DNA from: Xanthomonas sp. 10-10
GTDB taxonomy: Bacteria > Pseudomonadota > Gammaproteobacteria > Xanthomonadales > Xanthomonadaceae
Direction of reading: 5' to 3'
Length of the DNA: 64,000 bases
Assembly (NCBI RefSeq): GCF_040182365.1
Contig: NZ_CP144460.1
Coordinates: 4,578,935-4,642,934, forward strand
The notes beneath the pieces are model-generated. The model searched no databases and had not been told where the DNA came from. It saw only the letters and a list, made by a program, of their open reading frames with translations. Below are positions 3,787-31,089 of the stretch, piece after piece. The translations under genes were made by a program, and so were the position numbers. Numbering within the stretch: position 1 is the first letter of the stretch; every line of letters begins with the position of its first letter.

Positions 3787-4914
3787 TCAGCCGCGACCGG
3801 CGGCAGTCAACGGCCGCGCTGCTGGCCGCAGCAGCTTGTCGCGCAGTTGCAGGAACGGGCGCTCCACCACGTAATGCAACAGCGCGCCACCCAGCACTGC
3901 CGCCAGGCCATACACCGCAAATGCCAGCACACCCCGCCCCTCCAGCGCCGGGCCGAACCATCCCTGGGTGAGATGGAACACGGCCTTGTGGGTCAGATAC
4001 AGGCTGTAGGAGATGGCTGCCAGCCAAGCCGCGCCCGGCACGCGCAAACCGCCAAGCACACCGCTACTGGCGGTGCCGGCGAGCACCAGCAAGGCCAGTC
4101 CCAGCGACAGCACCGGCCAGCCCACCGCATTGCCGATCAGGCCGGTGCGCTCGCGGAACAGCCACAGTGCCAGCGCCAGAATCGCCACGCCGGCACACAG
4201 AATGGCGTTGCCGTGCTGCTGCAGCCGTTGCCACAGCGTGGGGCGAAACACCTTCAGCACCGCCAGTACGACACCGGCCAGCAGGCCGTCCAGACGATTC
4301 CAGGTCGGGTAGTAGATGTCTTCGATAAACCAGTTGCGCTGCAGACCTAGGCCAGCGCTGTCCAGGGCAGTGTTGTGCAACCAGAAGCCGGCGCGCAGCG
4401 CGATGCCCGCGATTACCACCGCCATGCACAGCATCACAAACCGCGCTGCAGAGGGTCGACGCAGCAGCAGCGTCGCCAGCAACGGAAACACCAGATAGAA
4501 ATGTTCTTCCACGCACAGCGACCAGGCGTGCGAGAACGCGGCATCACGGCCGTAGTCGACGAACAGGTTCAGGGTGAAGGTGACGAACATCCACCACGGC
4601 GCCAACCCGGGGGACTCGCGAAAATCCGGCCACACCATGTAGATCACCAGCACCAGCAAGAACGCCGGCAGGATGCGCAACGCGCGGCGCAGATAGAACT
4701 CCTTGAAATCCAGGCGTTGCCCGCGCGCCAGCGGCCTCAGCACCTGCGTGCCGATCAAAAACCCGCTGAGCACGAAGAACAGGTCCACCCCCATCCAGCC
4801 ATAGCGCGACAGCCATGCCCAGTCCGGCCCCAGCCCACCGACCACAAACGAATGGAACAGCATCACCCAGACGATGGCGATACCACGCAGCAGGTCCAGG
4901 GCGGGATAGCGCAT
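3787..4914 (-). CDS. Membrane acyltransferase family 3 protein (OafA/OpgC-like O-acyltransferase)
   Basis: It is a multi-TM protein. The start is taken at MRYPALDLLRG, and LLRGIAI...FFVLSGFLI is typical of PF01757. The ORF extends upstream to 5163, so the chosen start is an inference. Confidence 0.75.
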   Translation of the reverse strand: MRYPALDLLRGIAIVWVMLFHSFVVGGLGPDWAWLSRYGWMGVDLFFVLSGFLIGTQVLRPLARGQRLDFKEFYLRRALRILPAFLLVLVIYMVWPDFRESPGLAPWWMFVTFTLNLFVDYGRDAAFSHAWSLCVEEHFYLVFPLLATLLLRRPSAARFVMLCMAVVIAGIALRAGFWLHNTALDSAGLGLQRNWFIEDIYYPTWNRLDGLLAGVVLAVLKVFRPTLWQRLQQHGNAILCAGVAILALALWLFRERTGLIGNAVGWPVLSLGLALLVLAGTASSGVLGGLRVPGAAWLAAISYSLYLTHKAVFHLTQGWFGPALEGRGVLAFAVYGLAAVLGGALLHYVVERPFLQLRDKLLRPAARPLTAAGRG

Positions 4915-5176
4915 AGGGGCGATCGGCAATGAGGAAGACCGATTGTGCCGTATGTCCCACGCCCATGCGCAGGTTGCGCGCACCCGTCTGGAGGTAGGCA
5001 ACGCACGCTCAGAGAACCAGCGTGTGCCAGTGGCACGTGCCGCAACGAGCACGGCTGTGCGCCCTGACGGCGAGCGCGGCGTTGTGTTGGCCGCGCTTAC
5101 CCGCTGGCGCATGCATGACACTGCCCCGTCGGCGGGCACGCCGCGCGCCGCTGAGGCCGACACGGCACTCCCGGCC

Positions 5177-6508
5177 TCAGGCCACCGCCGCCTGCTCGAT
5201 TCGTGTCATCCGCGCGCCTGGATGCAACAGCCCCCACGCTTCCAGTTGATCGACTGCACTGCGCACGCCGTCTTCGTCGCGGATGCGCTGGCCCAGCGCG
5301 CGTGCCGCCGCACGCATGGCCGGGGCACTGGCCTGGCGCAATGCCTCGGCCAGCGTCTCCGGCTGCAAGCCGGCACGCACCAGGGCCGGTGGCGCCACGC
5401 CACGTCGTGCCAGGCAGTGCGCCCAGAACGGTTGGTCGTAGCCGAACGGCAACACCACCGACGGAATCCCGGCCGTCAGCGCAGCACCGGTGGTGCCGGC
5501 GCCGCCGTGGTGCACGGCTGCGGTCACCCGTGGAAACAACCAATCGTGCGGCGCTTGGTCCAGATGGAAGAAACGCCCGGCGTCATCCGCAGCGGCGGTG
5601 TCGGCGGTTTCCAGCCCGCCCCAGCCACTGGCCAGCAAGGCGCGTTGCCCGGTCAGGCGCACGGCGGCCTTGACCGTGGCGGTGAGCTGCACCGCATCGC
5701 GGCTGGTCATGCTGCCGAAGCCGATATACAACGGCGGCGGCCCGGCCTGCAGAAACGCCTGCAATGCGGCAGGCGGTTGCCATTGCGGCTGCGGCAGTTG
5801 CCAGAATCCGCAGACCTGCGCGCTTTGCGGCCAGTCCGGCGGACGTGGGCACAGCTGCGCGCTGTAACCGTAGATCACACGCAGCGCGCTGCGGTCCGGG
5901 CCTCGCCACGGATACGCCGGCAGCCCCAGCGCCGGCCGCACGATATCGTTGAGCGCCGGGCGCATCAGCTGCCAGCCGGCAAACCGCACCGCGTGGTGCA
6001 AGGCCACGCTCACACGCCCGGGCAGACGCACGTTGGGCATCACCATCAACGGCAGATGGCGCGAGGCCGTGAGCGGTTGCAGCTGTGCAAAGCACACCGG
6101 CACCCCATAGGCCTGACCCAGGCTATGCGCAAGGAAACTTGCGCTGCCCACGCCCAGGATCAAGCCGGCATCGGCGCACGCCGCCCGGCCCTGCTCTGCC
6201 CAGTCGCGTGCCCAGCTCAGCAGCTGTGCGCGCAATGTGCCCCAGATACCGCGCCAGCCGCCACGCATTTCTGCAACGTCCGGGTTGCCCTGCAGCAACT
6301 TCTGGTGGTCGCCGCTGAGCGGGAAAAACTCCAGCCCGTTGGCGCGAATCAATGCCTCGAAGTTGGTGCTGGTCAGTACCCGCACCAGGTAACCGCGCTG
6401 CTGCAGACCGCGGCCCAGCGCGATGATCGGGCGCACATCGCCGTGCGTGCCCAGGGTGGCGATGACGACCGGGCGGTTGGCTGCAGCCGAAGCGAGAGAC
6501 TCAGGCAT
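5177..6508 (-). CDS. Glycosyltransferase family 1, RhlB/MGT/UGT-like (nucleotide-sugar dependent)
   Basis: The N-terminal ATLGTHGDVRP matches the GT1 GSRGD-type motif. The C-terminal half carries a UDP-sugar binding signature (HHGGAGTT). Its start overlaps the NRPS stop by 8 nt. Confidence 0.8.
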   Translation of the reverse strand: MPESLASAAANRPVVIATLGTHGDVRPIIALGRGLQQRGYLVRVLTSTNFEALIRANGLEFFPLSGDHQKLLQGNPDVAEMRGGWRGIWGTLRAQLLSWARDWAEQGRAACADAGLILGVGSASFLAHSLGQAYGVPVCFAQLQPLTASRHLPLMVMPNVRLPGRVSVALHHAVRFAGWQLMRPALNDIVRPALGLPAYPWRGPDRSALRVIYGYSAQLCPRPPDWPQSAQVCGFWQLPQPQWQPPAALQAFLQAGPPPLYIGFGSMTSRDAVQLTATVKAAVRLTGQRALLASGWGGLETADTAAADDAGRFFHLDQAPHDWLFPRVTAAVHHGGAGTTGAALTAGIPSVVLPFGYDQPFWAHCLARRGVAPPALVRAGLQPETLAEALRQASAPAMRAAARALGQRIRDEDGVRSAVDQLEAWGLLHPGARMTRIEQAAVA

Positions 6509-9500
6509 ATTCGGCTACCCCGTCGTTGGCACTGGCGCTGGCGATGCTGGCATCGCGCTGCGGCACCTGTGCAGTGGCCTGGTGCAGCAGCGCACATAGC
6601 GTTGCCGAGTGCGCAGCCGACAGCATCGAGTGATGATCGCTGTCCAGGGCGTACAGATGCAGCGTGCGCACATACGGACGCCATGCCTGCGGCCGGTAAT
6701 CCACCCATTGCGCCTCGTCGCCACCGGAGCTCATACGCACGCTGGCTTCGACGAACAGCACATCCTGGTTCAATGTGCGCGGCCGGTGACGCCGCGCCAG
6801 GTGCAGGTGATGCTGGGTCACTGCGCCCAGGTCGTCCAGCAGCGTGGGGCGCTGCTTCAGCAACTGCTGCACCGCCGGCAAGGTGGTCAAGCCGTAGTGA
6901 TCGCACAACAGGCTGGCCAGCTGAGCCACGGTGGTCGGCATCGGTTGGTCGTGCGCCAGCGTCAGCCCGAGCGCATGTACCGATGCACGTACGTTTTCCG
7001 CTTCGGGCAGTGCGGCGGCCTGTTCCAGATGCGGGTAGCTGTCGAGCATCGCCAGCAACTCGACCTGTTCGCCCAGGTCATGCAATTCGGCGGCCATGGC
7101 GTGCGCGATCAGGCCGCCCAGCGACCAGCCCATCAAGCGATACGGGCCATGCGGCTGCACGCTGCGCAGACGCGCCAGATAATCGCGGGCGATCGCCTCG
7201 ATGCTTTCAGGACGGTGCTGCGGGTCGCTCAATGCCGGCGACTGCAATGCGTACACCGGCCACTGCGGATCGAGCTGGCCAAGCAGGGTGAGATACGACC
7301 AGCCCAGGCCGATGACTGGATGGATGCAGAACAACGGCGTGACGCCCGCGCTGCCTGCGCGCATCGGCAACAGCACGCTCAGCGGGTCGTTGGGTGCCTG
7401 CGCGCTGCGTTTGATCACCTCCGACAGGCCGGCAATCGTCGGCGCATGGAACAGCGCGCCCAGCGGCAGCTCCACGCCGAACAGTTGCGGGAAGCGTGCC
7501 GCCATCTCTGCCGCCCGTAGCGAATCGCCACCGAGCTCGAAGAAGTTGTCGTCCACCCCCACCACCTCGATGCCCAGCACCTCCTGCAGCAGGGCCGCCA
7601 GTTGATGTTCGAGTGCATCGCGCGGCGCCACATGCGCACGCTTGGGCAATGCGCCCGGCGCGGGCAAGGCGCGGCGATCCAGCTTGCCATTGGCCGTCAG
7701 CGGCAACGCCGGCAGTGGCATCCACAGGCTGGGAATCATCGAGGCCGGCAGACGCTGTTGCAGATGGGCGCGCAGCAACTCGCTCGATGGCGTGTTGCCA
7801 TGCTTGCCCACCACGTAGGCGAGCAGTTGCACGGCGTTGTCGCCATCGTTGTGCGCAACCACCGCCACCTGCGCCACCTGCGCATGCAGCAGCAATGCAT
7901 TTTCGATTTCCGCCGGCTCCACGCGGTGGCCGCGGATCTTCAATTGCGCATCGGCGCGGCCGATGAATTCCAGCAGGCCGTCGCGACGCTGACGTACGCG
8001 GTCGCCGGTGCGGTACATGGTGCTGCCGTCGTCGGCGAACGGGTCGCGCAGGAAACGCTCGCTGGTGAGCTGGCGCTTGCCGCGATAGCCCTTGGCCACG
8101 CCGGCACCGCCGATGTACAGCTCGCCGATCGCACCGGTCGGCAACGGCTGCCGCTGCGCATCCAGCACATAGACGCGTGTGTTGAGCAGCGGCCTGCCGA
8201 TTGGCGGCGCGGCCGCATCGGTCAACTGCAGCGGCATGATGGTCGACCAGATGGTGGTTTCGGTCGGCCCGTACAACTGGGTCAGGCGCCCAACCCGGCT
8301 CAACAATTGCGTCGCCAACTCGGGCACCAGGGCCTCGCCACCGACAAGGGCATGGATGCGATCCAGCGCCAGATCCTGATTGGCCAGCAGGATGCGCCAT
8401 AGCGACGGCGTGGCCTGCACCAGGCTGATCTGCTCGTGGACGATCAGGCGCGACAGACTGCGCGGATCGTGACTGATGCCGGCCGGTGCGATGACCACGC
8501 GCGCGCCCACCAGCAATGGCAGATACAGCTCCAGCCCGGCGATGTCGAAGGTGATGGTGGTGACCGCCAGCACGCGGTCGCGCGGACGCAAGGCGAGCTC
8601 GTGTTCCATCGCATGCAGGAAATTGAACAGGTTGCGATGGCTGATCTCCACGCCCTTGGGCGTGCCGGTGGAGCCGGAGGTGTACAGCACGTACGCCGTC
8701 CCATCCGGAGTCGCCCTTGGGGCGATCGCCGCCGGCAGCTGCGCCGGGCGCGGGTCCAGCCAGACCATGCCGCCAAGCAGATAGCGCTCGCACAATGCCG
8801 GCTCGCAGACCAGCGCAATCGCACCGGAATCGTTGAGCATCTGCCGATTGCGCGCCGCCGGGCTTTCCGGGTCCAGCGGCAGGTAGGCCGCGCCGCTCCA
8901 CATGATGGCCAGCAAGGCCACCAACAGATGCTCGCTGCGCGGCAACGCGACAGCGACCACATCGCCAGGGCGCACCCCATCGGCCACCCATTGCGCAGCG
9001 ATCCGCGAGGCGAGCTCGCACAGCGTGGCGTAGTCCAGGGTGCGGTTTTCGTATTGCACGACAACGGCCGCAGGCATGATCTCGGCACGCTGCAACATGC
9101 CGTGCAACAACGTGGCCGGCTCCGGCAGCGTTGCGGCGGTGTGATTCCAGGTGTGCAGCAACCGGTGGCGCTCTTGCTCGCCCAGCACGTCCACTTCACC
9201 CAGCGCGCATTCCGGGTTTGCCAGCACGGAATCGGCCAGATGGGTCAGGCGACGGCAGTGTTCGGCCAGCTCGTCGCTGTCGTACAACGCCGGATTGGCG
9301 TCCAGATCGAAGCGCAGGGCCGCGCCGTCGCCACGCTCGTAGCAAAAAATGGTCAGATCGTCGGCCGGGCCGTTGCACAGGTTATGCGGTATCGCGTACG
9401 CCTCGCCAAAGCGCAGCGCGTAATCGAAGGCTTCGATATTGACGGCCAGGCGGGCGAACTTCTGGTCGATGCCGAACATGCCGATGTCGCGGCGTACGTC

Positions 9501-10487
9501 CTCGAAGCGATATTGCTGATGCCGCAAGGCATGCCTGACTACCGATGCGACCTGCCCAAACAACGCATGGATCGGCTGCTGCGGGTCCATCTTCAGGCGC
9601 AGCGAGATCACATTGGCCACCAACCCGGCAGTCTGGCGGTAACGCGCATTGATGCGGCCGGTCACCGGCATCGCCAGCACCAGATCTTCGGCACCGGTGC
9701 AGCGGTAGTAATAGGCGGCGATCAGCGAGATCAGCATCTGCGGCAGGCTGGCGCCGTAGTCCTTGCCCATCGCACGCAGGCGCACCACCTGCTGCGGCGA
9801 AAACTGCCCGGTGCCGCGCAACAACCCGGTGGACAGATGATTGCCCGGGCGTGCCAGGGTTGCCGGTGGCGGCAGATCGGCCAGCTGCTGCATCCAGTAG
9901 TCGCGATCGCGCTGGAAGCGGTCGGAGGCGCGGTACTGCTGCTCCATCTCCACCAGCGACAGCGCACTGCCGTAGTGCGCAGGTTCCGGCTCCACGCCTG
10001 CGGCGTACGCGTTGTACAGCACCGACATGCGCTGCATCATGATCGATGCGCAATAACCGTCCATCACCAGATGGCTGACGCACTGCACCCACATATGGTG
10101 GTCTTCGCCGAGCCGGAACACCGCGCAATGCCACAGCGGCCCATGCTCCAGGTTTTCCGGCTGGCGGATCTGTTCGTCCACCCAGTGCTCGGCGGCATTG
10201 CGCGGTGCGGGATCTTCGCTGACGTTGAGGTAGGGAACCGGCGCCGTGTACTCGGGCAGGATCACCTGCCGCGGCACGCCGTCGTGCTCCACGATGCACA
10301 GCCGCAGCGTGTCGAACTCGCGCGCCAGCTGCAACGTGGCGCGGATCAATAGCGCAGGGTCCAGTGGACCGAACATCTCCAGTGCCTCGGACAACATCAA
10401 GGTGTTGTCGGTATGCAACTTGCTGGCCACCCACAGGCCGCGTTGCGCTCTGGTCAAGGGAAACAGCGGGGCGGCATCGGCGTGCAT
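6501..10487 (-). CDS. Single-module non-ribosomal peptide synthetase, C-A-T-TE (1328 aa)
   Basis: The C domain carries SHLVMDG (an HHxxxDG variant). A-domain motifs are LYTSGSTGTPKG, FDIAG, YGPTE, YRTGD and NGKLDR. The PCP has LGGDSL and the thioesterase has GWSLGG. AAGGAAG SD lies 7 nt before the ATG. Confidence 0.9.
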   Translation of the reverse strand: MHADAAPLFPLTRAQRGLWVASKLHTDNTLMLSEALEMFGPLDPALLIRATLQLAREFDTLRLCIVEHDGVPRQVILPEYTAPVPYLNVSEDPAPRNAAEHWVDEQIRQPENLEHGPLWHCAVFRLGEDHHMWVQCVSHLVMDGYCASIMMQRMSVLYNAYAAGVEPEPAHYGSALSLVEMEQQYRASDRFQRDRDYWMQQLADLPPPATLARPGNHLSTGLLRGTGQFSPQQVVRLRAMGKDYGASLPQMLISLIAAYYYRCTGAEDLVLAMPVTGRINARYRQTAGLVANVISLRLKMDPQQPIHALFGQVASVVRHALRHQQYRFEDVRRDIGMFGIDQKFARLAVNIEAFDYALRFGEAYAIPHNLCNGPADDLTIFCYERGDGAALRFDLDANPALYDSDELAEHCRRLTHLADSVLANPECALGEVDVLGEQERHRLLHTWNHTAATLPEPATLLHGMLQRAEIMPAAVVVQYENRTLDYATLCELASRIAAQWVADGVRPGDVVAVALPRSEHLLVALLAIMWSGAAYLPLDPESPAARNRQMLNDSGAIALVCEPALCERYLLGGMVWLDPRPAQLPAAIAPRATPDGTAYVLYTSGSTGTPKGVEISHRNLFNFLHAMEHELALRPRDRVLAVTTITFDIAGLELYLPLLVGARVVIAPAGISHDPRSLSRLIVHEQISLVQATPSLWRILLANQDLALDRIHALVGGEALVPELATQLLSRVGRLTQLYGPTETTIWSTIMPLQLTDAAAPPIGRPLLNTRVYVLDAQRQPLPTGAIGELYIGGAGVAKGYRGKRQLTSERFLRDPFADDGSTMYRTGDRVRQRRDGLLEFIGRADAQLKIRGHRVEPAEIENALLLHAQVAQVAVVAHNDGDNAVQLLAYVVGKHGNTPSSELLRAHLQQRLPASMIPSLWMPLPALPLTANGKLDRRALPAPGALPKRAHVAPRDALEHQLAALLQEVLGIEVVGVDDNFFELGGDSLRAAEMAARFPQLFGVELPLGALFHAPTIAGLSEVIKRSAQAPNDPLSVLLPMRAGSAGVTPLFCIHPVIGLGWSYLTLLGQLDPQWPVYALQSPALSDPQHRPESIEAIARDYLARLRSVQPHGPYRLMGWSLGGLIAHAMAAELHDLGEQVELLAMLDSYPHLEQAAALPEAENVRASVHALGLTLAHDQPMPTTVAQLASLLCDHYGLTTLPAVQQLLKQRPTLLDDLGAVTQHHLHLARRHRPRTLNQDVLFVEASVRMSSGGDEAQWVDYRPQAWRPYVRTLHLYALDSDHHSMLSAAHSATLCALLHQATAQVPQRDASIASASANDGVAEYA

Positions 10488-10977
10488 TGCAAGCTTCCTT
10501 TTGTGTGGCGCGCGGTCGCCCGGAGCGCCCTGGCCGCATTGCGGTCAAAGTGACGCCGGATCAGCACCTGGTAATGAAACGCAAGATAGAAAACACCATC
10601 GACTGCCGGCAGATGCCGGCAATACACAGTGGAAACGCACAATGGACAGGCAACTACGAGGCGACAGGCACGATCGAAACCCCGATGTGCAGATGTCTGA
10701 TTGGAGCAACTTGCATCCCGACAAGTTAAACAGACACTAACAATTCGTCTTCGGACAGAACCGTGCAAAAATCACGAATTGCGCGTGAGGTGCAAAATTT
10801 TTTTACCGAAGTGTGATTTCAACTAGTGTTCTGGATGCATAGCTGCAGGCAGACGCAATGCCACACCGATGCGCATTGCAAGAAAAGCACCTGGAATGCA
10901 GCGTCAAATGCGCAATGCTCTGCGCCCGGCAAGCGAACAGACGCTGCGCTTATCGGGTTACTCGCAGCGAGCAGTAC

Positions 10978-11230
10978 GCATAAGACCAGTGCGCGCGCCA
11001 GCGTTGATACGGCTGTATTTCTAGCCAATCACTGCGTAAAACGGCGGGCATTTGGCATGCATGCGCCATCTGCAACCACAGCGCATGGGATGTCGATGTC
11101 CTGAGCGCAACAATGGATAGGATGCGGCGCCCGCCCCGCTTCGACGATCGCCAAGCATAAGACCAGTACGCATGCAGGCGTTGATGCGCCTGCGTCGTGT
11201 GCAAATCACTGCACGAAACACGCTGTTTTC
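10978..11230. repeat. Two paralogous ~75-bp direct repeats (10978-11052 and 11155-11230) in the noncoding region upstream of the NRPS operon
   Basis: Both copies start with the identical 13-mer GCATAAGACCAGT and share the motifs GCGTTGAT and CAAATCACTGC. Overall identity is ~75%. Confidence 0.6.
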
Positions 11231-11577
11231 TGCAGCAACCTCGCCGGTGGTCGCACGATCACGCAAGCGTCGCCTGCGTGTCATCGGCATGAAGCGTCGC
11301 TGGGTTTCGCTGCTGGTGCTGGTGCTGCGACGCTGCGCAGACCGCAATGCATGGTGTAGCTGAGCCCGCCTGACACACGACCTTAAGCCGCGCCATCAAG
11401 ACGCCACCGTGCGATGAAGATCGCGTGCGACGTGGCGGATGCTGGTCGCCGCATTGCGCCGTTGGGCAATGCGGCGACCAGTGCCCTGCACGGGCTTCCA
11501 CACCGGCAGCGCACGAAGCGGATTGCTCGATGACAAGGATCAACGCGCTGCGGGGCAGGCCCGCAGCGCGCGATGCA

Positions 11578-13464
11578 TCAGCCCAACGGCTCGTCGGACA
11601 GATAGGTATAGCCGGTCAGGCCGGCCTCCAGCGCGTCGTGCAGCTCCTGCGCGCGCTCGGGCGACAGTTGCGCTGCGGCGATGCGTTCGGCATAGGTCGC
11701 GCGCAGCGTGTCCAGCTGGTAGCCCACGTAGTCCAGCATCACATCGGTGGTGTCGCCGCGACGCTGCTGCACGATGCGATAGCCCTCGCCGTCCACGGCA
11801 ACTTCCACCGCATCGGTATCGCCGAACAGGTTATGGATATCGCCGAGGATTTCCTGGTAGGCACCGACCAGGAAGAAACCGATGCGATAACTCTCGCCCG
11901 GGTTCAAGGTGTGCAACGGCATCGAGCTGTCCAGACTCTCGTTCTCGACGTAGGTCTTGACCATGCCGTCGGAGTCGCAGGTCATGTCGGCAATGATGCC
12001 GCGCCGCTGCGGGGCTTCGTTCAGGCGCTCGATCGGCACGATCGGGAACACCTGATCGATCGCCCACACATCCGGGATCGACTCGAACACGCTGAAGTTG
12101 ACGAAGTACTTGTCCACCAGCCGCTCGTTGAGCTCGTCCAGCACCGGGCGGTGGCTCTTCTCGTCGAAGCTCAGGCGTGCACGCACACCGTGCGCGATGG
12201 CATAGAACAGGTCGTCGATGCGCGCGCGGTGGGTCAGGTCAATCTGGCCCAGTGCATACGCGCTCAAGCCTTCGGCATGGAAGTGCTGCGCCTCCTGGAA
12301 CAATTCCACCGCCGGTCGCACATCGAGCTCGTCGTGGATCTCGCGCAGGTGGCGGATCGCTGCCGGCTCGTCGTCGTGCGCGTCCGGCACGCGGCCTTCC
12401 GGCGCCTGCTCCACCTCGGACACGTTGGCGATCAGCACCGCATGGTGGGCGGTCATCGCGCGGCCGCATTCGGTGACGATGCGCGGCGGGGTCAGGCCGT
12501 GTTCTTCGCAGGCGCTGGCCAACGGCTGCACGATGTTGCTGGCGTAGGAATGCAGGCCGTAGTTGATCGAGCAATAGCTGCGCGAGCGGGTGCCTTCGTA
12601 ATCGATGCCCAGGCCGCCGCCGACGTCCACGTGGCTGATCTTCGCGCCCAGCCGCGACAACTCCACGAAATAGCGCGTGGCCTCGCGCATGCCGTTGGCG
12701 ATGTCGCGCACATTGGAGATCTGCGAGCCCATGTGGAAATGCAGCAGCTTCAGGCTGTCGGCGTACTCGGTGTCGCGCAGCGTCTTCCACAGGTCCAGCA
12801 CCTGCCGCGGCGACAGCCCGAACTTGGCCTTGTCGCCGCCGCTGTTCTGCCATTTGCCCGCGCCCAGCGAGGCCAGGCGCATGCGCACGCCCAGGCCCGG
12901 CTTGACGTCCAGCGCGCGCGCCTCTTCCAGCACCAGCTTCAGCTCGGAGGGCTTTTCGATGACGATGAAGGTCTGCAGGCCGAGCTTGCGGCCGATCAGC
13001 GCCAGGCGGATGTATTCGCGGTCCTTGTAGCCGTTGCAGACGATCAGCCCGCCCGGACGCGACAGCGCCAGCACTGCCATCAGCTCCGGCTTGCTGCCCG
13101 CTTCCAGGCCGAAGCCCTCGCCATGGTGGCTGGCCAGCGTGCCGGCCACGCCACGGTGCTGGTTGACCTTGATCGGGTACACCGCGGTATAGCCGCCGGC
13201 GTAATCCCACTCGGACTGCGCCTGCGCGAACGCCGCCTGCAGCTTGCCCAGGCGCTGGCCGAGGATGTCGGGGAAACGCACCAGCAGCGGCAGCTTGGCG
13301 CCGGCCGCACGCGCGGCATCCACCACCTCCGGCAAGGACACCGACGGGCCGTCGACGGTGGGGGTGACCACCACGTGGCCGGCGGCGTTTACATCGAAAT
13401 ACCCATCGGCCCAATGCGGGATCGAGTAGGTCTTGCGGGCTTGGTCGAGGGACCAATCGCTCAT
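11578..13464 (-). CDS. speA: Biosynthetic arginine decarboxylase
   Basis: It aligns with E. coli SpeA from TYSIPHWADGYFDV onward. The start is taken at MSDWS. The upstream in-frame extension to 13548 would contain the leader hairpin. Confidence 0.9.
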   Translation of the reverse strand: MSDWSLDQARKTYSIPHWADGYFDVNAAGHVVVTPTVDGPSVSLPEVVDAARAAGAKLPLLVRFPDILGQRLGKLQAAFAQAQSEWDYAGGYTAVYPIKVNQHRGVAGTLASHHGEGFGLEAGSKPELMAVLALSRPGGLIVCNGYKDREYIRLALIGRKLGLQTFIVIEKPSELKLVLEEARALDVKPGLGVRMRLASLGAGKWQNSGGDKAKFGLSPRQVLDLWKTLRDTEYADSLKLLHFHMGSQISNVRDIANGMREATRYFVELSRLGAKISHVDVGGGLGIDYEGTRSRSYCSINYGLHSYASNIVQPLASACEEHGLTPPRIVTECGRAMTAHHAVLIANVSEVEQAPEGRVPDAHDDEPAAIRHLREIHDELDVRPAVELFQEAQHFHAEGLSAYALGQIDLTHRARIDDLFYAIAHGVRARLSFDEKSHRPVLDELNERLVDKYFVNFSVFESIPDVWAIDQVFPIVPIERLNEAPQRRGIIADMTCDSDGMVKTYVENESLDSSMPLHTLNPGESYRIGFFLVGAYQEILGDIHNLFGDTDAVEVAVDGEGYRIVQQRRGDTTDVMLDYVGYQLDTLRATYAERIAAAQLSPERAQELHDALEAGLTGYTYLSDEPLG

Positions 13465-13489
13465 TTCGTTGTCTCGGCTGGGGCAAAAA

Positions 13490-13552
13490 GGGCGTGAAGT
13501 GTAACGCCTGGCACGCGCAGGGTCCGTTACAATCCGCGCCGACTTCACGCCC
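13490..13552 (-). promoter_or_regulatory. Terminator-like nested hairpin plus U-tract in the speA 5' leader (candidate attenuator)
   Basis: On the minus strand: GGGCGTGAAGT...GTAACG(18 nt)CGTTAC..ACTTCACGCCC TTTTTG. The outer stem is 11 bp. The U-tract ends 20 nt before the speA ATG. Confidence 0.5.
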
Positions 13553-13646
13553 TGCTCCTGGTCGGAGCGGGGCCGAGCAAGGGTCAGCCGCCACGCAGTC
13601 CGACTGCATGAGGCTGCGCCCGACCCTCATCCGGCGCCACGCGCCA

Positions 13647-13667
13647 CCTTCTCCCGCAGGGAGAAGG
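13647..13667. repeat. REP-like palindrome CCTTCTCCC-GCA-GGGAGAAGG in the speE leader
   Basis: It is a perfect 9-bp inverted repeat. The same family occurs at 54946-54966 (and in gcccc-GCA-ggggc form at 43507-43519). Confidence 0.6.
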
Positions 13668-13701
13668 AACAGCCCGCTTCTTCCAGAATTAGGACGTCCG
13701 C

Positions 13702-14559
13702 ATGAGCACCAACGACAACTGGTACATCGAACACTTCCAGCCCACCGGCTCGGCGATCGGCTTCCGCATCAGTGGCAAGCTGGACGAGGTGCAGTCCCCG
13801 TTCCAGAAGATCGAGATCTACCAGACCACCGACTGGGGCAAGCTGATGCTGATCGATGGCGCGGTGATGCTCACCAGCCGCGACAATTTCTTCTATCACG
13901 AGATGATCAGCCATCCGGCGCTATTCACCCACGCCGCGCCCAAGCGCGTGGTGATCATCGGCGGCGGCGACTGCGGCACCCTGCGCGAGGTGCTCAAGCA
14001 CCCGGGCGTGGAAAGCGCCACCCAGTGCGATATCGACGAGCAGGTCACCCGCATGTCGGAGAAGTACTTCCCCGAGCTGTGCGATTCCAACCACGACGCG
14101 CGCGCCGAGCTGCTGTTCGACGACGGCGTGGCCTACATGGCCAACTGCCCGGCCGGCAGCGTGGACATCGTGATCGTCGATTCCACCGACCCGGTCGGCC
14201 CGGCCGAGGGCCTGTTCAACAAGGCCTTCTACGAGAGCTGCTTCAAGGCACTGAAGGACGACGGCATCCTGGTGCAGCAGTCCGAGTCGCCGCTGGCGCT
14301 GCTGGCGCTGATCCAGGAAATGCGCACCGAAATGGGCAAGGCCGGCTTCCAGTCGTTCAAGACCCTGCCGTTCCCGCAGCCGTGCTACCCCACCGGCTGG
14401 TGGAGCGTGACCATGGCCAGCAAGCAGGCCAACGCCGATTTCGCCTTCCGCCAGGACGCTGCGCAGGCCAAGGGCTTCGAGACGCTGTACTACACCGCGC
14501 ACCTGCATACCGGCGTGCTGGTCGCACCGCCGTTCGTGGCCAAGGCGCTGGACGAGTAA
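13702..14559 (+). CDS. speE: Polyamine aminopropyltransferase (spermidine synthase)
   Basis: Motifs VVIIGGGDCGTLREV and DSTDPVGP are present. It lies divergent to speA. Confidence 0.9.
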   Translation: MSTNDNWYIEHFQPTGSAIGFRISGKLDEVQSPFQKIEIYQTTDWGKLMLIDGAVMLTSRDNFFYHEMISHPALFTHAAPKRVVIIGGGDCGTLREVLKHPGVESATQCDIDEQVTRMSEKYFPELCDSNHDARAELLFDDGVAYMANCPAGSVDIVIVDSTDPVGPAEGLFNKAFYESCFKALKDDGILVQQSESPLALLALIQEMRTEMGKAGFQSFKTLPFPQPCYPTGWWSVTMASKQANADFAFRQDAAQAKGFETLYYTAHLHTGVLVAPPFVAKALDE

Positions 14560-26953: not shown

Positions 26954-28075
26954 TCAAGCGCCCTGCAACGCAGCGCTGCGTTGGCGCACCGGCTTGGGCC
27001 GGCTGGGGAAGGCATGCCGCACGATCCGCCACATCACCTGGCCGAACTGACGCGGCAGCGAGCCGGTGTTGTAGTGCTGGCCGTAGCGCGCACAGATCTG
27101 CCTCACTTCGACCGCGATCTGCGCATAACGATTGGCCGGCAGGTCCGGGTAGAAGTGATGCTCGATCTGGTGGCTCAGATTGCCCGACAGCACGTTCATC
27201 AGCTTGCCGCCGGTCAGATTCGACGAGCCGCGCAACTGACGCAGATACCAGTGGCCGCGCGACTCGTTGCGGATCGATTCCTTCGGAAACACTTCCGCAT
27301 CGGCGGTGAAGTGACCGCAGAAGATGATCACGAAGGTCCAGATGCTGCGCAGCACGTTGGCGGCCAGGTTGCCCAGCAGCACGGTCAGGAAGAACGGGCC
27401 TGCCAGCAGCGGGAACACGATGTAGTCCTTGAGCATCTGGCGGCCGATCTTGCGGCCCACCGGCAGGAACGAGGCGCGCAATTCGGCCGCCTTCATCTTG
27501 CCCGCGAACCACCGGCCCAGGCGCAGGTCCTGGATCGCCACGCCCCATTCGAACAACAGCGCAAACACCACCGCGATGAACGGCTGCAGCAGGTAGAACG
27601 GGCGCCAGCGCTGCTCGGGGAAGATGCGCAGCAGGCCGTAGCCGATGTCGTCGTCCATGCCGCGCACGTTGGTATAGGTGTGGTGCTTGAAGTTGTGCGT
27701 CTTGCGCCAGTTGTCGCCGGTGGCAACGATGTCCCACTCGTAGGTGTTGCCGTTGAGCTGAGGGTCGCCCATCCAGTCGTACTGACCGTGCATGACGTTG
27801 TGGCCCAGCTCCATGTTCTCCAGGATCTTGGACAGGGTCAGCAGCACCACACCGGCGATCCAGGCCGGAATCAGCACGCTGTGCACGAACGCGCCCAAAA
27901 ACAACAGCGCGCGGCCAGCCACGCCGGTCCAGCGCACCGCCGCCACGATGCGGCGGATGTAACGCGCATCGGCGGCGCCGACCTGGGCCTGCACGCGGGC
28001 GCGGATGGCATCGAGTTCGTCGCCGAAGGACTGCAGTTCGGCAGCGGACAGGGCGCGGTTATGGACTCGGCTCAT
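26954..28075 (-). CDS. desB: Membrane acyl-CoA/acyl-lipid fatty acid desaturase (DesB-like)
   Basis: It carries the histidine boxes HNVMHGQY, HNFKHH and HQIEHH and is multi-TM. Confidence 0.8.
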   Translation of the reverse strand: MSRVHNRALSAAELQSFGDELDAIRARVQAQVGAADARYIRRIVAAVRWTGVAGRALLFLGAFVHSVLIPAWIAGVVLLTLSKILENMELGHNVMHGQYDWMGDPQLNGNTYEWDIVATGDNWRKTHNFKHHTYTNVRGMDDDIGYGLLRIFPEQRWRPFYLLQPFIAVVFALLFEWGVAIQDLRLGRWFAGKMKAAELRASFLPVGRKIGRQMLKDYIVFPLLAGPFFLTVLLGNLAANVLRSIWTFVIIFCGHFTADAEVFPKESIRNESRGHWYLRQLRGSSNLTGGKLMNVLSGNLSHQIEHHFYPDLPANRYAQIAVEVRQICARYGQHYNTGSLPRQFGQVMWRIVRHAFPSRPKPVRQRSAALQGA

Positions 28076-28084
28076 GAGGATTCC

Positions 28085-29179
28085 TTACAGATCCAGGATC
28101 AGGTCAGTGCTCGGGGCACTGATGCACAGGCGGACCTGTGCGGTGGGTTCGTTGCTGCGCTCACCGGTCAACAGGTGGCGCGTGGTGCCGGACTGACGCG
28201 CGCAGGCGCAGCTGTTGCAGATGCCCATGCGGCAGCCGTGCTTCGGCCGCAGGCCTTGCGCTTCCAGCCCTTCCAGCAGCGACTGGCCGCGCGGCAGGGT
28301 CAGCGTACGGCCGCTGCGTGACAGCTGGACCTGCACCTCACCGGCTTCGCCGTCATCCAGCACCGGCACGCTGAAGGCTTCGGCCTGAAACGCCGCCACC
28401 TGGCCTTCCAGCCGCGCGCGCGCTGCCTGCACGAAGCCGCCCGGCCCGCAGACCATGACGTGGCGGCTGGAGAGATCGGCGATCTGCTGCAACGGGTAGG
28501 TATCGATGCGCGCAGCTGGCGCGGCGCCTTCGCGAGTGGTCAGCAGCCGCACACGCAGGCGCGGGTGTGCAGCGGCCATCGCCTCGAATTCGTCGACGAA
28601 GCAGGCTTCGTCGCGCTGGCGCACCCAGTACAGCAGGTCCACGTCCATCGGCATGCCGGCCTGCGCGGCGGCCTGCAGCAGCGCGCGCATCGGGGTGATG
28701 CCCGAGCCGGCAGCCAGCAGCAACAGCGGCGTCGGGGCAGTCGGCAGCAACATGTCGCCGAAGGCCGGATCCAGCGACACCACCGTCCCGATCGGCGCAT
28801 CGCCGGCCAGGTAGCGGCTGACCAGCCCGCCCTCGATCGCCTTGACGGTGATGGCCAGGCGGCCATCGGCCAGCACGGTCGGGCTGTAGCTGCGCAGCAG
28901 GCGGCGGCCGTCGATCTCCACGCCCAGGCTCACGTGCTGGCCGGCCTGCAGGCCCTGCCAGTGGCCGTTGGCCTGAAGCACCAAGGTCACCGCGTCGCGG
29001 CTGGCAGTGCTGCGCTCGACCAGACGGGCCATCGGCCGATCCAGCGTCCACAGCGGATTGATCCGGGTTGCCCAGAAATCGAACAGCTGTGGCGACACCA
29101 GCCGGCGCGCCAGCCGTGCGGACAGCGGGGCTTTGCTCTTTGGAGTGGATGCCAGGCTCATAGGTCGCACTATACGCAT
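28085..29179 (-). CDS. desC: Ferredoxin-NAD(P)H reductase with a C-terminal 2Fe-2S ferredoxin domain (DesC-like desaturase partner)
   Basis: It has an FAD-binding RxYS motif, an NAD-binding GSGITP motif, and a C-terminal CRMGICNSC 2Fe-2S cluster motif. It lies 9 nt downstream of the desaturase gene. An alternative start is at 29161. Confidence 0.75.
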   Translation of the reverse strand: MRIVRPMSLASTPKSKAPLSARLARRLVSPQLFDFWATRINPLWTLDRPMARLVERSTASRDAVTLVLQANGHWQGLQAGQHVSLGVEIDGRRLLRSYSPTVLADGRLAITVKAIEGGLVSRYLAGDAPIGTVVSLDPAFGDMLLPTAPTPLLLLAAGSGITPMRALLQAAAQAGMPMDVDLLYWVRQRDEACFVDEFEAMAAAHPRLRVRLLTTREGAAPAARIDTYPLQQIADLSSRHVMVCGPGGFVQAARARLEGQVAAFQAEAFSVPVLDDGEAGEVQVQLSRSGRTLTLPRGQSLLEGLEAQGLRPKHGCRMGICNSCACARQSGTTRHLLTGERSNEPTAQVRLCISAPSTDLILDL

Positions 29180-29253
29180 GCATGCACATGCGTGTATACA
29201 GTTGTATATTCCTAGAAGGGCTATGATTCATCCCCTCGCCCGGCCGCCGCCCC
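29180..29253. promoter_or_regulatory. Divergent desT/desCB control region with an imperfect ~28-bp palindrome
   Basis: TATACGCATGCATGCACATGCGTGTATA is a near-perfect inverted repeat. TGTATACA lies in a 55%-AT island. Confidence 0.5.
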
Positions 29254-29901
29254 ATGACCTCCATCGCCCTGCCTTCCCACGACGCGCCGCCGTCACGCAA
29301 GCCGGCGATTTCACGCGAGGACCTGATTGCCGCGGCGCTGTCGCTGATCGGCCCGCACCGCAGCCTGTCCACGCTGAGCCTCAGGGAAGTGGCACGCGAA
29401 GCCGGGATTGCGCCAAACAGCTTCTACCGCCAGTTCCGCGACATGGATGAGCTCGCGGTAGCGCTGATCGATCTGGCCGGCCGCTCGCTGCGCACCATCA
29501 TCGGGCAAGCCCGCCAGCGCGCCACCTCCACCGACCGCAGCGTGATCCGCGTGTCCGTGGAGGCGTTCATGGAGCAGCTGCGCGCCGACGACAAGCTGCT
29601 GCACGTGCTGCTGCGCGAAGGCGCGGTGGGCTCGGATGCCTTCAAGCAGGCGGTGGAGCGTGAGCTGACCTATTTCGAAGACGAACTGCGCGTGGACCTG
29701 ATCCGCCTGGCCGCCGCCGACAACGCCAAGTTGCACGCACCGGCGCTGGTGTCCAAGGCGATCACCCGCCTGGTCTTTGCGATGGGAGCGGTGGCGATGG
29801 ACTCACCGCCGGAAAAGGACCCGGAACTGATCGAACAGATCTCGCAGATGCTGCGCATGATTCTGACCGGCGCGCGTACGCTGGGCACCCACGGCGGCTG
29901 A
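29254..29901 (+). CDS. desT: TetR-family transcriptional regulator (DesT-like)
   Basis: The N-terminal HTH reads LSLREVAREAGIAPNSFYRQFRDMDEL. It is divergent to the desaturase operon. Confidence 0.7.
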   Translation: MTSIALPSHDAPPSRKPAISREDLIAAALSLIGPHRSLSTLSLREVAREAGIAPNSFYRQFRDMDELAVALIDLAGRSLRTIIGQARQRATSTDRSVIRVSVEAFMEQLRADDKLLHVLLREGAVGSDAFKQAVERELTYFEDELRVDLIRLAAADNAKLHAPALVSKAITRLVFAMGAVAMDSPPEKDPELIEQISQMLRMILTGARTLGTHGG

Positions 29902-30952: not shown

Positions 30953-31020
30953 GGTAACGGCTCGTGGTCGAGCGGCGGCACTATCCGCAGGCGCGGTTCA
31001 ATTCCGCATTACCCACCACT
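30953..31020 (+). pseudogene. Decayed tRNA remnant (~65 nt) ending in CCA
   Basis: The acceptor stem is GGGTAAC/ATTACCC. A T-arm-like GCGGTTCAATTCCGC is followed by discriminator A and CCA. The anticodon arm cannot be folded and the element is too short. Confidence 0.4.
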
Positions 31021-31089
31021 GGATAGCTCAGAGGGTAGAGCAACAGATTTCAAATCTGTCTGTCGCGGGTTCGATTCCCGCTCCAAGCA
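31017..31089 (+). tRNA. tRNA-like element with a UCA anticodon; the 5' acceptor strand is unpaired at positions 1-3 (probable pseudo-tRNA)
   Basis: The D arm is canonical (TAGCTCAGAGGGTAGAGC). The anticodon stem ACAGA/TCTGT has the loop TTTCAAA. The T arm is GCGGGTTCGATTCCCGC. The acceptor 3' strand TCCAAGC pairs only 4/7 with the 5' strand CACTGGA, and no CCA follows. Confidence 0.4.

What the first reader, a model, noticed from the sequence alone, without database searches (positions are those of the whole stretch)
3787..10487. Compact NRPS / glycosyltransferase / membrane O-acyltransferase operon with no described product
A lone-module NRPS (C-A-T-TE) is followed on the same strand by a GT1 RhlB/MGT-like glycosyltransferase and, after 263 bp, by an acyltransferase-3 membrane protein. 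The NRPS stop overlaps the GT start by 8 nt. The only well-known C-A-T-TE unimodular NRPS is SwrW, which makes the lipo-amino-acid dimer serratamolide. RhlB-type GTs glycosylate the 3-OH of 3-hydroxyacyl chains. Combined with the predicted Gly specificity, the simplest model is an N-(3-hydroxyacyl)-glycine that is glycosylated and possibly O-acylated. That would be a glycolipoamino-acid surfactant or signal not described for this group. The locus sits among core genes (argS ... speA) at genomic GC, so it is not an obvious recent island.
Basis: partly seen in the sequence, partly recalled or inferred. Interest (0 to 1): 0.85.

Follow-up and report, generated by a model that had tools for sequence, protein, structure and literature searches.

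The report
Known Xanthomonas short NRPS–glycosyltransferase gene pair
The three genes are real, but the synthetase plus sugar-transferase pair was already described in Xanthomonas in 2013 with the same predicted glycine-lipid-sugar product, and the third gene, a membrane acyltransferase, looks like an unrelated older neighbour.

Summary
On the minus strand lie a 1328-aa C-A-T-TE NRPS (6501-10487), a 443-aa GT1 glycosyltransferase (5177-6508) that overlaps it by 8 nt, and a 375-aa Acyl_transf_3 protein (3787-4914) after a 262-nt gap.

The C domain is a starter (lipoinitiation) type. The A-domain code is DILQLGLIWK (Gly). The predicted glycosylated N-(3-hydroxyacyl)-glycine is therefore reasonable.

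It is not new. Royer et al. 2013 (PMC3849588) described these "short NRPS genes" overlapping a GT gene in X. campestris (XCC3867/3866), X. citri (XAC3922/3921) and X. albilineans. They reported the same Gly code, predicted the same product, and noted the homologous ABO_1784/1783 pair of Alcanivorax borkumensis, which makes a glycine-glucolipid.

Comparative genomics separates the acyltransferase from the pair. The NRPS-GT pair recurs without it in Dyella, Spongiibacter, Acidobacteriaceae, Acetobacteraceae and Nitrospirillum. The acyltransferase sits next to speA without any NRPS-GT in X. indica and in a second genome of unidentified organism. The NRPS-GT pair is thus an insertion into a conserved speA-AT3-SDR-SPOR-argS backbone.

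Both genes are under purifying selection (dN/dS about 0.1). The Xanthomonas metabolite itself has not been isolated. Interest is low to moderate.

The parts
6501..10487 (-). Single-module NRPS, 1328 aa. Domains are starter C (about 9156-10463), A (about 7683-9086), PCP (about 7416-7604) and TE (about 6582-7337). It is the orthologue of XCC3867 / XAC3922.
   Evidence: Pfam domains. Best solved relatives of the C domain are the 7C1H/K/P entries (RzmA starter C by my recollection) and CDA-C1. Stachelhaus code DILQLGLIWK, C3 motif SHLVMDG, PCP GGDSL, TE GWSLG. 94-98% identical to X. pisi and 79-93% to X. prunicola. dN/dS 0.08-0.10.
5177..6508 (-). GT1-family glycosyltransferase, 443 aa. Its start overlaps the NRPS stop by 8 nt. 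It is the orthologue of XCC3866 / XAC3921 ('ugt').
   Evidence: Pfam PF03033 + PF06722. Best solved relative is the yeast sterol 3-beta-glucosyltransferase 5GL5/5XVM (3e-46), then GtfD/A/B. 95% identical to X. pisi and 87% to X. citri. The overlap was read directly. dN/dS 0.11-0.15.
3787..4914 (-). Acyl_transf_3 (OafA/YrhL-like) membrane acyltransferase, 375 aa. It is a conserved backbone neighbour and probably not part of the NRPS-GT module.
   Evidence: Pfam PF01757. The 100% hit P0121 is 375 aa; homologues are 64-70% identical in Pseudoxanthomonas and Niveibacterium. It lies next to speA with no NRPS/GT in X. indica L085 and in L086. It is absent next to NRPS-GT in L004, L005, L007, L014, L025, L056, L081 and L084.
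4915..5176 (-). 262-nt spacer between the GT stop and the acyltransferase start. Whether transcription reads through it is undecided.
   Evidence: No promoter-like or terminator-like site was found. A GC hairpin right after the GT stop folds no better than shuffled sequence (z -0.03). The spacer is alignable only to X. pisi (87.5%) and not to other loci.
10488..10841 (-). Conserved upstream block of about 350 nt immediately 5' of the NRPS start. It is the likely promoter/leader of the NRPS-GT unit.
   Evidence: 75-80% identical in X. pisi, X. prunicola and X. euvesicatoria, while the rest of the speA-NRPS spacer is not alignable. No sigma-70 consensus match. No Rfam family.
11431..11492 (-). 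Strong hairpin downstream of the speA stop. It probably ends the speA transcript, so NRPS-GT would be transcribed separately.
   Evidence: Inverted repeat with 27-nt arms. Fold energy -46.2 kcal/mol, z -4.24, with 0 of 200 shuffles folding as well. No U-tract follows it, so the terminator function is inferred.

Best explanation
The locus is the Xanthomonas copy of a widespread two-gene biosynthetic module: a one-module NRPS (starter C-A(Gly)-PCP-TE) and a translationally coupled GT1 glycosyltransferase. It most likely makes a glycosylated N-(3-hydroxyacyl or oligo-3-hydroxyacyl)-glycine, a glycine glycolipid of the kind made by Alcanivorax borkumensis.

Inferred mechanism:
1. The A domain loads glycine on the PCP.
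2. The starter C domain N-acylates it with a 3-hydroxyacyl (or ester-linked oligo-3-hydroxyacyl) thioester drawn from fatty-acid metabolism.
3. The TE releases the lipo-amino acid.
4. The GT adds a hexose, probably glucose from UDP-glucose, to the free 3-hydroxyl.

The module lies between speA and an older, independently conserved Acyl_transf_3 gene, which is a neighbour and not a pathway member.

What is shown: gene and domain content, Gly code, starter-C type, coupling to the GT, conservation, purifying selection, and the independence of the acyltransferase.

What is inferred: the acyl donor, the chain number, the sugar, and the release chemistry.
For: - Domains are C-A-T-TE followed by GT1.
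- The C domain is closest to solved lipoinitiation starter C domains.
- The Gly code is DILQLGLIWK. It is the same as published for XCC3867, XAC3922, XALc_0364 and ABO_1784.
- The start/stop overlap is 8 nt. The same 8-nt overlap occurs in X. albilineans L081 and Dyella L084.
- C-A-T-TE + GT pairs with Gly-type codes occur in Acidobacteriaceae, Spongiibacter, Acetobacteraceae and Nitrospirillum.
- In Spongiibacter the pair is followed by an Sfp-type PPTase. That is the layout Royer et al. report for ABO_1784-1783-1782.
- Royer et al. 2013 made the same product prediction for the Xanthomonas orthologues.
- The A. borkumensis glycine-glucolipid is four ester-linked 3-hydroxy acids with glucose at one end and glycine in amide linkage at the other.
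- A 2025 paper on its biosynthesis exists (Cui et al., Nat Chem Biol, cited). It assigns, from my memory only, an NRPS + GT + PPTase cluster.
- dN/dS is 0.08-0.15 for the NRPS and GT, and all catalytic motifs are intact.
- XAC3921 and XAC3922 are both induced by DSF quorum sensing in planta.
- The acyltransferase is independent of the pair.
Against: - No product has been isolated from any Xanthomonas, as far as the held literature shows.
- I could not obtain the ABO_1783/1784 sequences. Homology to the Alcanivorax system therefore rests on Royer's published figures (38-39% for the NRPS, 41% for the GT) and on the Spongiibacter loci (38-50% across the four NRPS domains, 40-47% for the GT).
- The Cui 2025 paper could not be read.
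- No Sfp-type PPTase lies in the window. Royer et al. reported that no XaPPTase homologue exists in X. campestris or X. citri.
- The sugar and acyl chain cannot be read from sequence.
- The first His of the HHxxxDG motif is Ser here.
- X. euvesicatoria ATCC 11633 shows a frame change in the A domain.
Confidence: 0.7

Rival explanations
1. One reading: a three-gene operon in which the Acyl_transf_3 protein O-acylates the glycosylated acyl-glycine.
For: The gene is on the same strand, immediately downstream, only 262 nt away, with no detectable terminator. The arrangement is kept in X. pisi, X. prunicola, X. euvesicatoria and X. translucens. Acetylated congeners with no in-cluster acetyltransferase are known for the related variovoracins, so acylation of such glycolipids does occur.
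Against: The acyltransferase lies next to speA with no NRPS-GT in X. indica and in a second genome of unidentified organism (L086). It is 64-70% identical in genera such as Pseudoxanthomonas and Niveibacterium; in the Niveibacterium locus that was checked no NRPS or GT is nearby. None of eight NRPS-GT loci outside the speA site has an AT3 neighbour. In X. translucens it has diverged like the backbone (75%, against SDR 76%) while NRPS and GT are about 57%.
Confidence: 0.12
2. The genes are a decaying relic. Without a dedicated Sfp-type PPTase the NRPS stays apo and makes nothing. Royer et al. suggested this for X. campestris and X. citri.
For: No PPTase is in the window. Royer's table lists the XaPPTase homologue as absent in Xcc and Xac. 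There are frame changes in the NRPS and AT3 of X. euvesicatoria ATCC 11633. The pair is absent from X. oryzae and X. sacchari according to Royer.
Against: dN/dS is 0.08-0.15 over dS 0.19-0.74. The reading frames and catalytic motifs are intact in the window, X. pisi, X. prunicola and X. translucens. Expression is regulated in planta. A HetI-like, Sfp-family PPTase has been reported in Xanthomonas (title of Chen et al. 2022, cited).
Confidence: 0.1
3. An EntF-type siderophore synthetase, which is how XAC3922 is annotated ('entF, serine activating enzyme').
For: NCBIfam gives strong partial matches to EntF and MxcG. EntF has the same C-A-T-TE layout, and EntF ranks second among solved TE matches. 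The X. citri literature lists the gene under iron uptake.
Against: The scores are far below the EntF and MxcG cut-offs (637 against 2400 bits; 707 against 2300). The A-domain code is Gly, not Ser. The C domain is closer to lipoinitiation C domains than to EntF. No entA/B/C/E-like or receptor genes are nearby. The gene is always coupled to a GT1 gene.
Confidence: 0.03

Closest known systems
Xanthomonas 'short NRPS genes' with an overlapping glycosyltransferase (XCC3867/XCC3866, XAC3922/XAC3921, XALc_0364/XALc_0365; Royer et al. 2013, PMC3849588)
   Same: Same genus. Same C-A-PCP-TE layout, same DILQLGLIWK (Gly) code, starter C domain, and a GT gene overlapping the 3' end. The GT is 87% identical to the X. 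citri protein. The predicted product is the same.
   Different: None of substance: this is another species' orthologue. The overlap is 8 nt here, against 4 nt reported for XALc_0364. Royer et al. did not discuss the Acyl_transf_3 neighbour or the speA insertion site.
Alcanivorax borkumensis glycine-glucolipid genes ABO_1784 (NRPS), ABO_1783 (GT) and ABO_1782 (PPTase)
   Same: C-A-PCP-TE with an identical Gly code, and a GT gene that overlaps the NRPS 3' end. The known product contains glycine, 3-hydroxy acids and glucose.
   Different: Only about 38-41% identical to the X. albilineans proteins (published values; not tested directly here). There is no adjacent PPTase in Xanthomonas. The organism is a plant-associated bacterium, not a marine alkane degrader. 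The Xanthomonas product, chain number and sugar are unknown.
Variovoracin (rlpB/rlpC) and rhizoleucinoside (Bbta_4110/4109) glycolipopeptide clusters
   Same: An NRPS with a starter C domain plus a GT1 that glycosylates an oligo-3-hydroxyacyl chain. Mono-modular versions exist.
   Different: RlpB has two modules and ends in a reductase domain. There is an MbtH partner, rhamnose is the sugar, and the amino acids are Ser/Leu. Bbta_4109 is only 23% identical to the X. albilineans GTs, so it belongs to a different GT1 lineage.
SwrW (serrawettin W1) and EntF, the other C-A-T-TE single-module NRPSs
   Same: Same domain order. Both N-acylate one amino acid with an acyl or aryl thioester.
   Different: Both activate serine and use the TE to oligomerise through the serine hydroxyl. 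Neither has a coupled GT. Glycine has no side-chain hydroxyl, so that release chemistry cannot apply here.

Membership tests
Short NRPS + overlapping GT module (Royer 2013; Alcanivorax glycine-glucolipid type) | Single NRPS module with C-A-PCP-TE order | tested here: met
   Pfam domains in that order.
Short NRPS + overlapping GT module (Royer 2013; Alcanivorax glycine-glucolipid type) | Starter (lipoinitiation) type C domain | tested here: met
   Best solved matches are the 7C1H/K/P entries (RzmA starter C by my recollection; 1e-68 to 1e-69) and CDA-C1 (1e-49). Elongation-type C domains such as the tyrocidine and surfactin synthetase entries score 1e-20 or weaker.
Short NRPS + overlapping GT module (Royer 2013; Alcanivorax glycine-glucolipid type) | A-domain code DILQLGLIWK (Gly) | tested here: met
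   Extracted by script. Identical to the published codes of XCC3867, XAC3922, XALc_0364 and ABO_1784.
Short NRPS + overlapping GT module (Royer 2013; Alcanivorax glycine-glucolipid type) | GT1 gene directly downstream, overlapping the NRPS stop | tested here: met
   8-nt overlap ATGCCTGA.
Short NRPS + overlapping GT module (Royer 2013; Alcanivorax glycine-glucolipid type) | Sequence orthology to XCC3867/3866 and XAC3922/3921 | tested here: met
   The GT is 87% identical to the X. citri protein and 95% to X. pisi. NRPS domains are 79-98% identical in X. pisi, X. prunicola and X. euvesicatoria at the same speA site.
Short NRPS + overlapping GT module (Royer 2013; Alcanivorax glycine-glucolipid type) | Direct sequence homology to ABO_1784 / ABO_1783 | not tested
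   The sequences could not be retrieved: the genome scan and the third protein search did not return Alcanivorax. Indirect support comes from Royer's table (38-41%) and from the Spongiibacter NRPS-GT-PPTase loci (38-50% across the NRPS domains, 40-47% for the GT).
Short NRPS + overlapping GT module (Royer 2013; Alcanivorax glycine-glucolipid type) | Dedicated Sfp-type PPTase next to the pair (Alcanivorax / Spongiibacter layout) | tested here: not met
   No PF01648 protein among the window ORFs scanned, and no PPTase motif in six frames. This matches Royer's note for Xcc and Xac.
Short NRPS + overlapping GT module (Royer 2013; Alcanivorax glycine-glucolipid type) | Product is a glycine-containing glycolipid | not testable with these tools
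   Needs mutants and LC-MS/MS.
EntF / enterobactin-type synthetase | Reaches the curated EntF score; Ser-specific A domain; ent genes nearby | tested here: not met
   637 bits against a cut-off of 2400. The code is Gly. The neighbours are speA, speE, AT3, SDR, SPOR and argS.
SwrW / serrawettin synthetase | C-A-T-TE with a Ser-specific A domain and no tailoring GT | tested here: not met
   The layout is met, but the code is Gly and a coupled GT is present. No SwrW sequence was available for direct comparison.
Acyl_transf_3 (OafA/YrhL-like) membrane acyltransferases | PF01757 domain over the whole membrane protein | tested here: met
   E 3.7e-25, aa 87-429 of the long ORF. Database relatives are named OafA/YrhL. 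The substrate is unknown.

The most novel reading that the evidence does not exclude
After the NRPS-GT module landed next to it, the old backbone acyltransferase may have been recruited in Xanthomonas to O-acylate the sugar of the glycine glycolipid. That would give a genus-specific acylated surfactant, made under DSF quorum-sensing control, that helps colonisation of plant surfaces or vessels.
Probability: 0.1. Interest if true: 0.5.

Novelty: already known. Interest (0 to 1): 0.25.

Why it matters
The locus itself adds little. The gene pair, its glycine specificity and its predicted product were published for Xanthomonas in 2013, and a homologous cluster is tied to a known biosurfactant in Alcanivorax.

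What remains open is practical:
- No one appears to have isolated the Xanthomonas compound.
- The genes are under clear purifying selection despite the earlier suggestion that they are inactive for lack of a PPTase.
- In X. citri they are switched on by DSF quorum sensing during infection.

A glycine glycolipid surfactant could matter for wetting, spreading or biofilm behaviour of a major group of plant pathogens. That would be an incremental result, not a new kind of system.

Tried and rejected
1. Reading Cui et al. 2025 (Nat Chem Biol, doi 10.1038/s41589-025-01908-1). It is not held by DOI or PMID, and five literature searches found no open paper describing its gene assignments. Its content is therefore cited from memory only.

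2. Retrieving the Alcanivorax proteins. A third protein search seeded with the Spongiibacter pelagi GT returned Zhongshania, Spongiibacter, Microbulbifer and Marinomonas, but no named Alcanivorax.

3. A terminator between the GT and the acyltransferase. The GC hairpin after the GT stop folds no better than shuffles (z -0.03), and the pattern scan found nothing there. Co-transcription stays undecided.

4. Promoter and RNA elements upstream of the NRPS. There was no sigma-70 consensus match, no Rfam family, and no MbtH-like or other conserved small ORF.

5. A conserved acyltransferase promoter shared with genomes that lack NRPS-GT. No alignable intergenic sequence was found.

6. dN/dS for the GT and AT3 against X. 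translucens. My ORF picker chose a spurious overlapping frame, so those two values are discarded.

7. The plasmid search. It gave only an 18-kb X. phaseoli record with a fragment of the NRPS 5' end, and nothing suggests mobility.
Full report
**Observation**

The window is 66% GC. On the minus strand, ORF listing and translation give three genes.
- An ORF of 1328 aa at 6501-10487.
- An ORF of 443 aa at 5177-6508.
- An ORF ending at 3787. Its longest form starts at 5163, but its real start is the ATG at 4914: a 100%-identical database protein is 375 aa (P0121), and the Pfam domain begins at residue 87 of the long form.

Pfam assigns Condensation, AMP-binding, AMP-binding_C, PP-binding and Thioesterase, in that order, to the first protein. 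The second has Glyco_transf_28 N-terminal plus EryCIII-like C-terminal domains, which is a GT1 fold. The third has Acyl_transf_3.

The NRPS stop and the GT start overlap by 8 nt, ATGCCTGA. The spacer before the acyltransferase is 262 nt. The flanks are argS, a SPOR-domain gene and an SDR on one side, and speA and speE on the other.

**Enzymology that can be read from sequence**

- *A domain.* The Stachelhaus code, extracted by anchoring on the A4, A5 and A10 motifs, is DILQLGLIWK. This is the glycine code, and it is identical to the code published for the Xanthomonas orthologues and for ABO_1784.
- *C domain.* By a wide margin its closest solved relatives are 7C1H/7C1K/7C1P (E 1e-68 to 1e-69) and the CDA synthetase first C domain 4JN3 (1e-49). 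The tool names the first set only as "non-ribosomal peptide synthetase modules"; I recognise them from memory as the rhizomide RzmA starter C domain. Both are lipoinitiation domains. ObiF1 and EntF follow. Elongation-type C domains such as the tyrocidine and surfactin synthetase entries score 1e-20 or worse.
- *Catalytic residues.* The catalytic His of the C3 motif (SHLVMDG), the PCP serine (GGDSL) and the TE serine (GWSLG) are all present.
- *GT.* Its best solved relative is the yeast UDP-glucose sterol 3-beta-glucosyltransferase (3e-46), followed by the vancomycin-group Gtf enzymes. NCBIfam gives only sub-threshold matches to antibiotic glycosyltransferases.
- *NCBIfam matches of the NRPS.* The best matches are MxcG and EntF, but at about a quarter to a third of their curated cut-offs.

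**It is already described**

Royer et al. 2013 (PMC3849588) devote a section to "short NRPS genes". These are single C-A-PCP-TE modules of about 4 kb whose 3' end overlaps a glycosyltransferase gene by 4 or 8 bp. They occur in X. albilineans (XALc_0364/0365 and XALc_1145/1144), X. campestris (XCC3867/3866, XC_3952/3951) and X. citri (XAC3922/3921). Their C domains fall in the starter clade.

Their Additional file 3 lists DILQLGLIWK (Gly) for all of these except XALc_1145. It lists the same code for ABO_1784 of Alcanivorax borkumensis, whose GT (ABO_1783) and PPTase (ABO_1782) are contiguous.

The window GT is 95% identical to the X. pisi protein, 87% to X. citri, and 80-87% to the other named clade-2 Xanthomonas species with full-length hits. 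So this is the same gene pair in another Xanthomonas.

A. borkumensis makes a glycine-glucolipid. It consists of four ester-linked 3-hydroxy acids, with glucose glycosidically bound at one end and glycine in amide linkage at the other (PMC10710537). A 2025 paper on its biosynthesis exists (Cui et al., Nat Chem Biol, cited), but it is not held. From memory only, it assigns a three-gene NRPS/GT/PPTase cluster to this lipid.

Related glycolipopeptide clusters have also been linked to products. These are the variovoracin rlpB/rlpC cluster and the rhizoleucinoside producer Bradyrhizobium BTAi1, which the variovoracin paper reports carries a cluster strongly homologous to the variovoracin one; Royer's table lists its short NRPS-GT pair as Bbta_4110/4109.

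**How far the module extends**

I scanned one genome per species with a GT alignment and compared the window proteins with the resulting loci by tblastn.
- *Same site in Xanthomonas.* The speA-NRPS-GT-AT3 order is kept in all four loci, and SDR and argS follow in the three whose contigs extend that far. Identities are 94-99% in X. pisi, 79-98% in X. prunicola, and similar in X. euvesicatoria. In X. translucens the NRPS and GT are only about 57% identical, but speA is 90%, argS 86%, SDR 76% and AT3 75%.
- *Other lineages.* A C-A-T-TE NRPS directly followed by the GT also occurs in Acidobacteriaceae (L004, L005), Spongiibacter (L007, L014), an Acetobacteraceae MAG (L025), Nitrospirillum (L056), Dyella (L084) and at a different site in X. 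albilineans (L081). None of these has an Acyl_transf_3 neighbour.
- *Specificity across lineages.* Their A-domain codes are Gly-type (DILQLG[LF][IV]WK, or DILQMGLIWK in the Acetobacteraceae MAG), except in Dyella and XALc_1145.
- *PPTase.* In both Spongiibacter loci the gene after the GT is an Sfp-type PPTase (4PPT_N + ACPS). This reproduces the Alcanivorax layout.
- *More distant GTs.* GT homologues below about 43% identity (Chloroflexota, cyanobacteria, Actinomadura) lack an adjoining C-A-T-TE gene.

**The acyltransferase is a backbone gene**

Its homologues are 64-70% identical in Pseudoxanthomonas and even in Niveibacterium. That is more conserved than the GT, which is 50-54% identical in Lysobacter, Luteimonas and Dyella.

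In X. indica (L085) the order is speE-speA-AT3, followed by other genes. In a 3.8-Mb JGI genome of unidentified organism (L086) it is speE-(M48 peptidase)-speA-AT3-SDR-SPOR-argS. Neither has an NRPS or GT.

The simplest reading is that the roughly 6.4-kb NRPS-GT segment is an indel between speA and a pre-existing acyltransferase. The three-gene "operon" is therefore a two-gene module plus a neighbour. Co-transcription cannot be excluded: no terminator or promoter is detectable in the 262-nt spacer. The spacer aligns only with X. pisi.

**Transcription upstream**

speA is followed by strong hairpins. The one at 11431-11492 folds at -46 kcal/mol with z -4.2. The 350 nt just 5' of the NRPS are conserved among clade-2 species, while the rest of the spacer is not. 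This fits an own promoter for NRPS-GT, though that is an inference.

**Is it functional?**

Royer et al. suggested that the pair may have lost function in species without the XaPPTase gene. No PPTase lies in this window. Four observations argue for function.
- dN/dS is 0.08-0.10 for the NRPS and 0.11-0.15 for the GT, over dS of 0.19-0.74.
- All catalytic motifs are intact.
- In X. citri both genes are induced by DSF/Rpf quorum sensing in planta: log2 1.42 for XAC3922 and 1.52 for XAC3921 (PMC6337780).
- A HetI-like PPTase has been reported in Xanthomonas (title of Chen et al. 2022, seen).

One draft genome, X. euvesicatoria ATCC 11633, shows frame changes in the A domain and in AT3. These may reflect lineage-specific decay or sequencing error.

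**Mechanism**

What is shown:
- a glycine-activating module with a lipoinitiation C domain and a TE;
- translational coupling to a GT1 enzyme that is related to a UDP-glucose sterol glucosyltransferase.

What is inferred, by homology with the Alcanivorax and variovoracin systems:
- N-acylation of PCP-bound glycine by a 3-hydroxyacyl or oligo-3-hydroxyacyl thioester;
- release by the TE;
- glycosylation of the free 3-hydroxyl.

How an oligomeric acyl chain would be built is unresolved even for the variovoracins.

**Verdict**

The finding is not novel: the locus is an orthologue of a published Xanthomonas gene pair with a published product prediction, and it is homologous to a system tied to a known biosurfactant.

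The points added here are:
- the acyltransferase is an independent backbone gene;
- the pair is an indel at the speA site;
- the glycine code is conserved across phyla;
- the genes are under purifying selection.

The Xanthomonas metabolite remains to be isolated, which keeps a modest residual interest.

Noticed in passing
window 10842-11577: The speA-proximal part of the speA-NRPS spacer has about 58% GC. It cannot be aligned even to X. pisi, whose flanking genes are 94-99% identical. It contains a 65-nt direct repeat (10978-11042 and 11155-11219, 72% identical). Its origin is unknown.
   Followed up: partly
window 11431-11492 (minus strand): A strong hairpin with 27-nt arms lies downstream of the speA stop (-46 kcal/mol, z -4.2). 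A second GC hairpin lies directly after the stop codon. Neither has a clear U-tract.
   Followed up: partly
L002 (X. euvesicatoria ATCC 11633), about 8203 and about 11825: The reading frame changes inside the NRPS A domain and inside the Acyl_transf_3 gene. This could be pseudogenisation in this lineage or errors in the draft assembly.
   Followed up: no
L088 = NZ_CP020970.1 (X. phaseoli CFBP6164 'plasmid unnamed1', 18 kb): A record deposited as a circular plasmid carries speE and an unannotated 954-bp piece of the NRPS 5' end (84.5% identical to window 9534-10487). It looks like a chromosomal fragment, not a true plasmid.
   Followed up: partly
L083 (Lysobacter antibioticus), 8001-12995: Here the GT homologue is followed by two stand-alone Condensation-domain proteins and a GT2, not preceded by a C-A-T-TE NRPS. 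This is a different architecture built around the same GT lineage.
   Followed up: no
L084 (Dyella caseinilytica), 9385-13781: A MacAB-type ABC efflux set with an outer-membrane factor lies next to the NRPS-GT pair. It is a candidate exporter. This NRPS has a non-Gly code, DILWLGLVLK.
   Followed up: no
window about 10040-10060 (NRPS C3 motif): The three clade-2 Xanthomonas sequences examined (the window, X. pisi, X. prunicola) have SHxxxDG in place of HHxxxDG. X. translucens, X. albilineans and all non-Xanthomonas homologues that could be read keep HH.
   Followed up: partly
L007 10275-11144 and L014 11221-12051 (Spongiibacter): An Sfp-type PPTase gene directly follows the GT. This gives the same NRPS-GT-PPTase trio reported for Alcanivorax borkumensis. 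Relatives of this GT also occur in the alkane degrader Zhongshania.
   Followed up: partly
window 26954-29901: A fatty-acid desaturase gene, a ferredoxin-reductase-type gene (FAD/NAD/2Fe-2S) and a divergent TetR regulator form a compact unit. It has no apparent link to the finding.
   Followed up: no
window 31020-31085: The single tRNA gene found in the window (Rfam RF00005, 56.9 bits).
   Followed up: no
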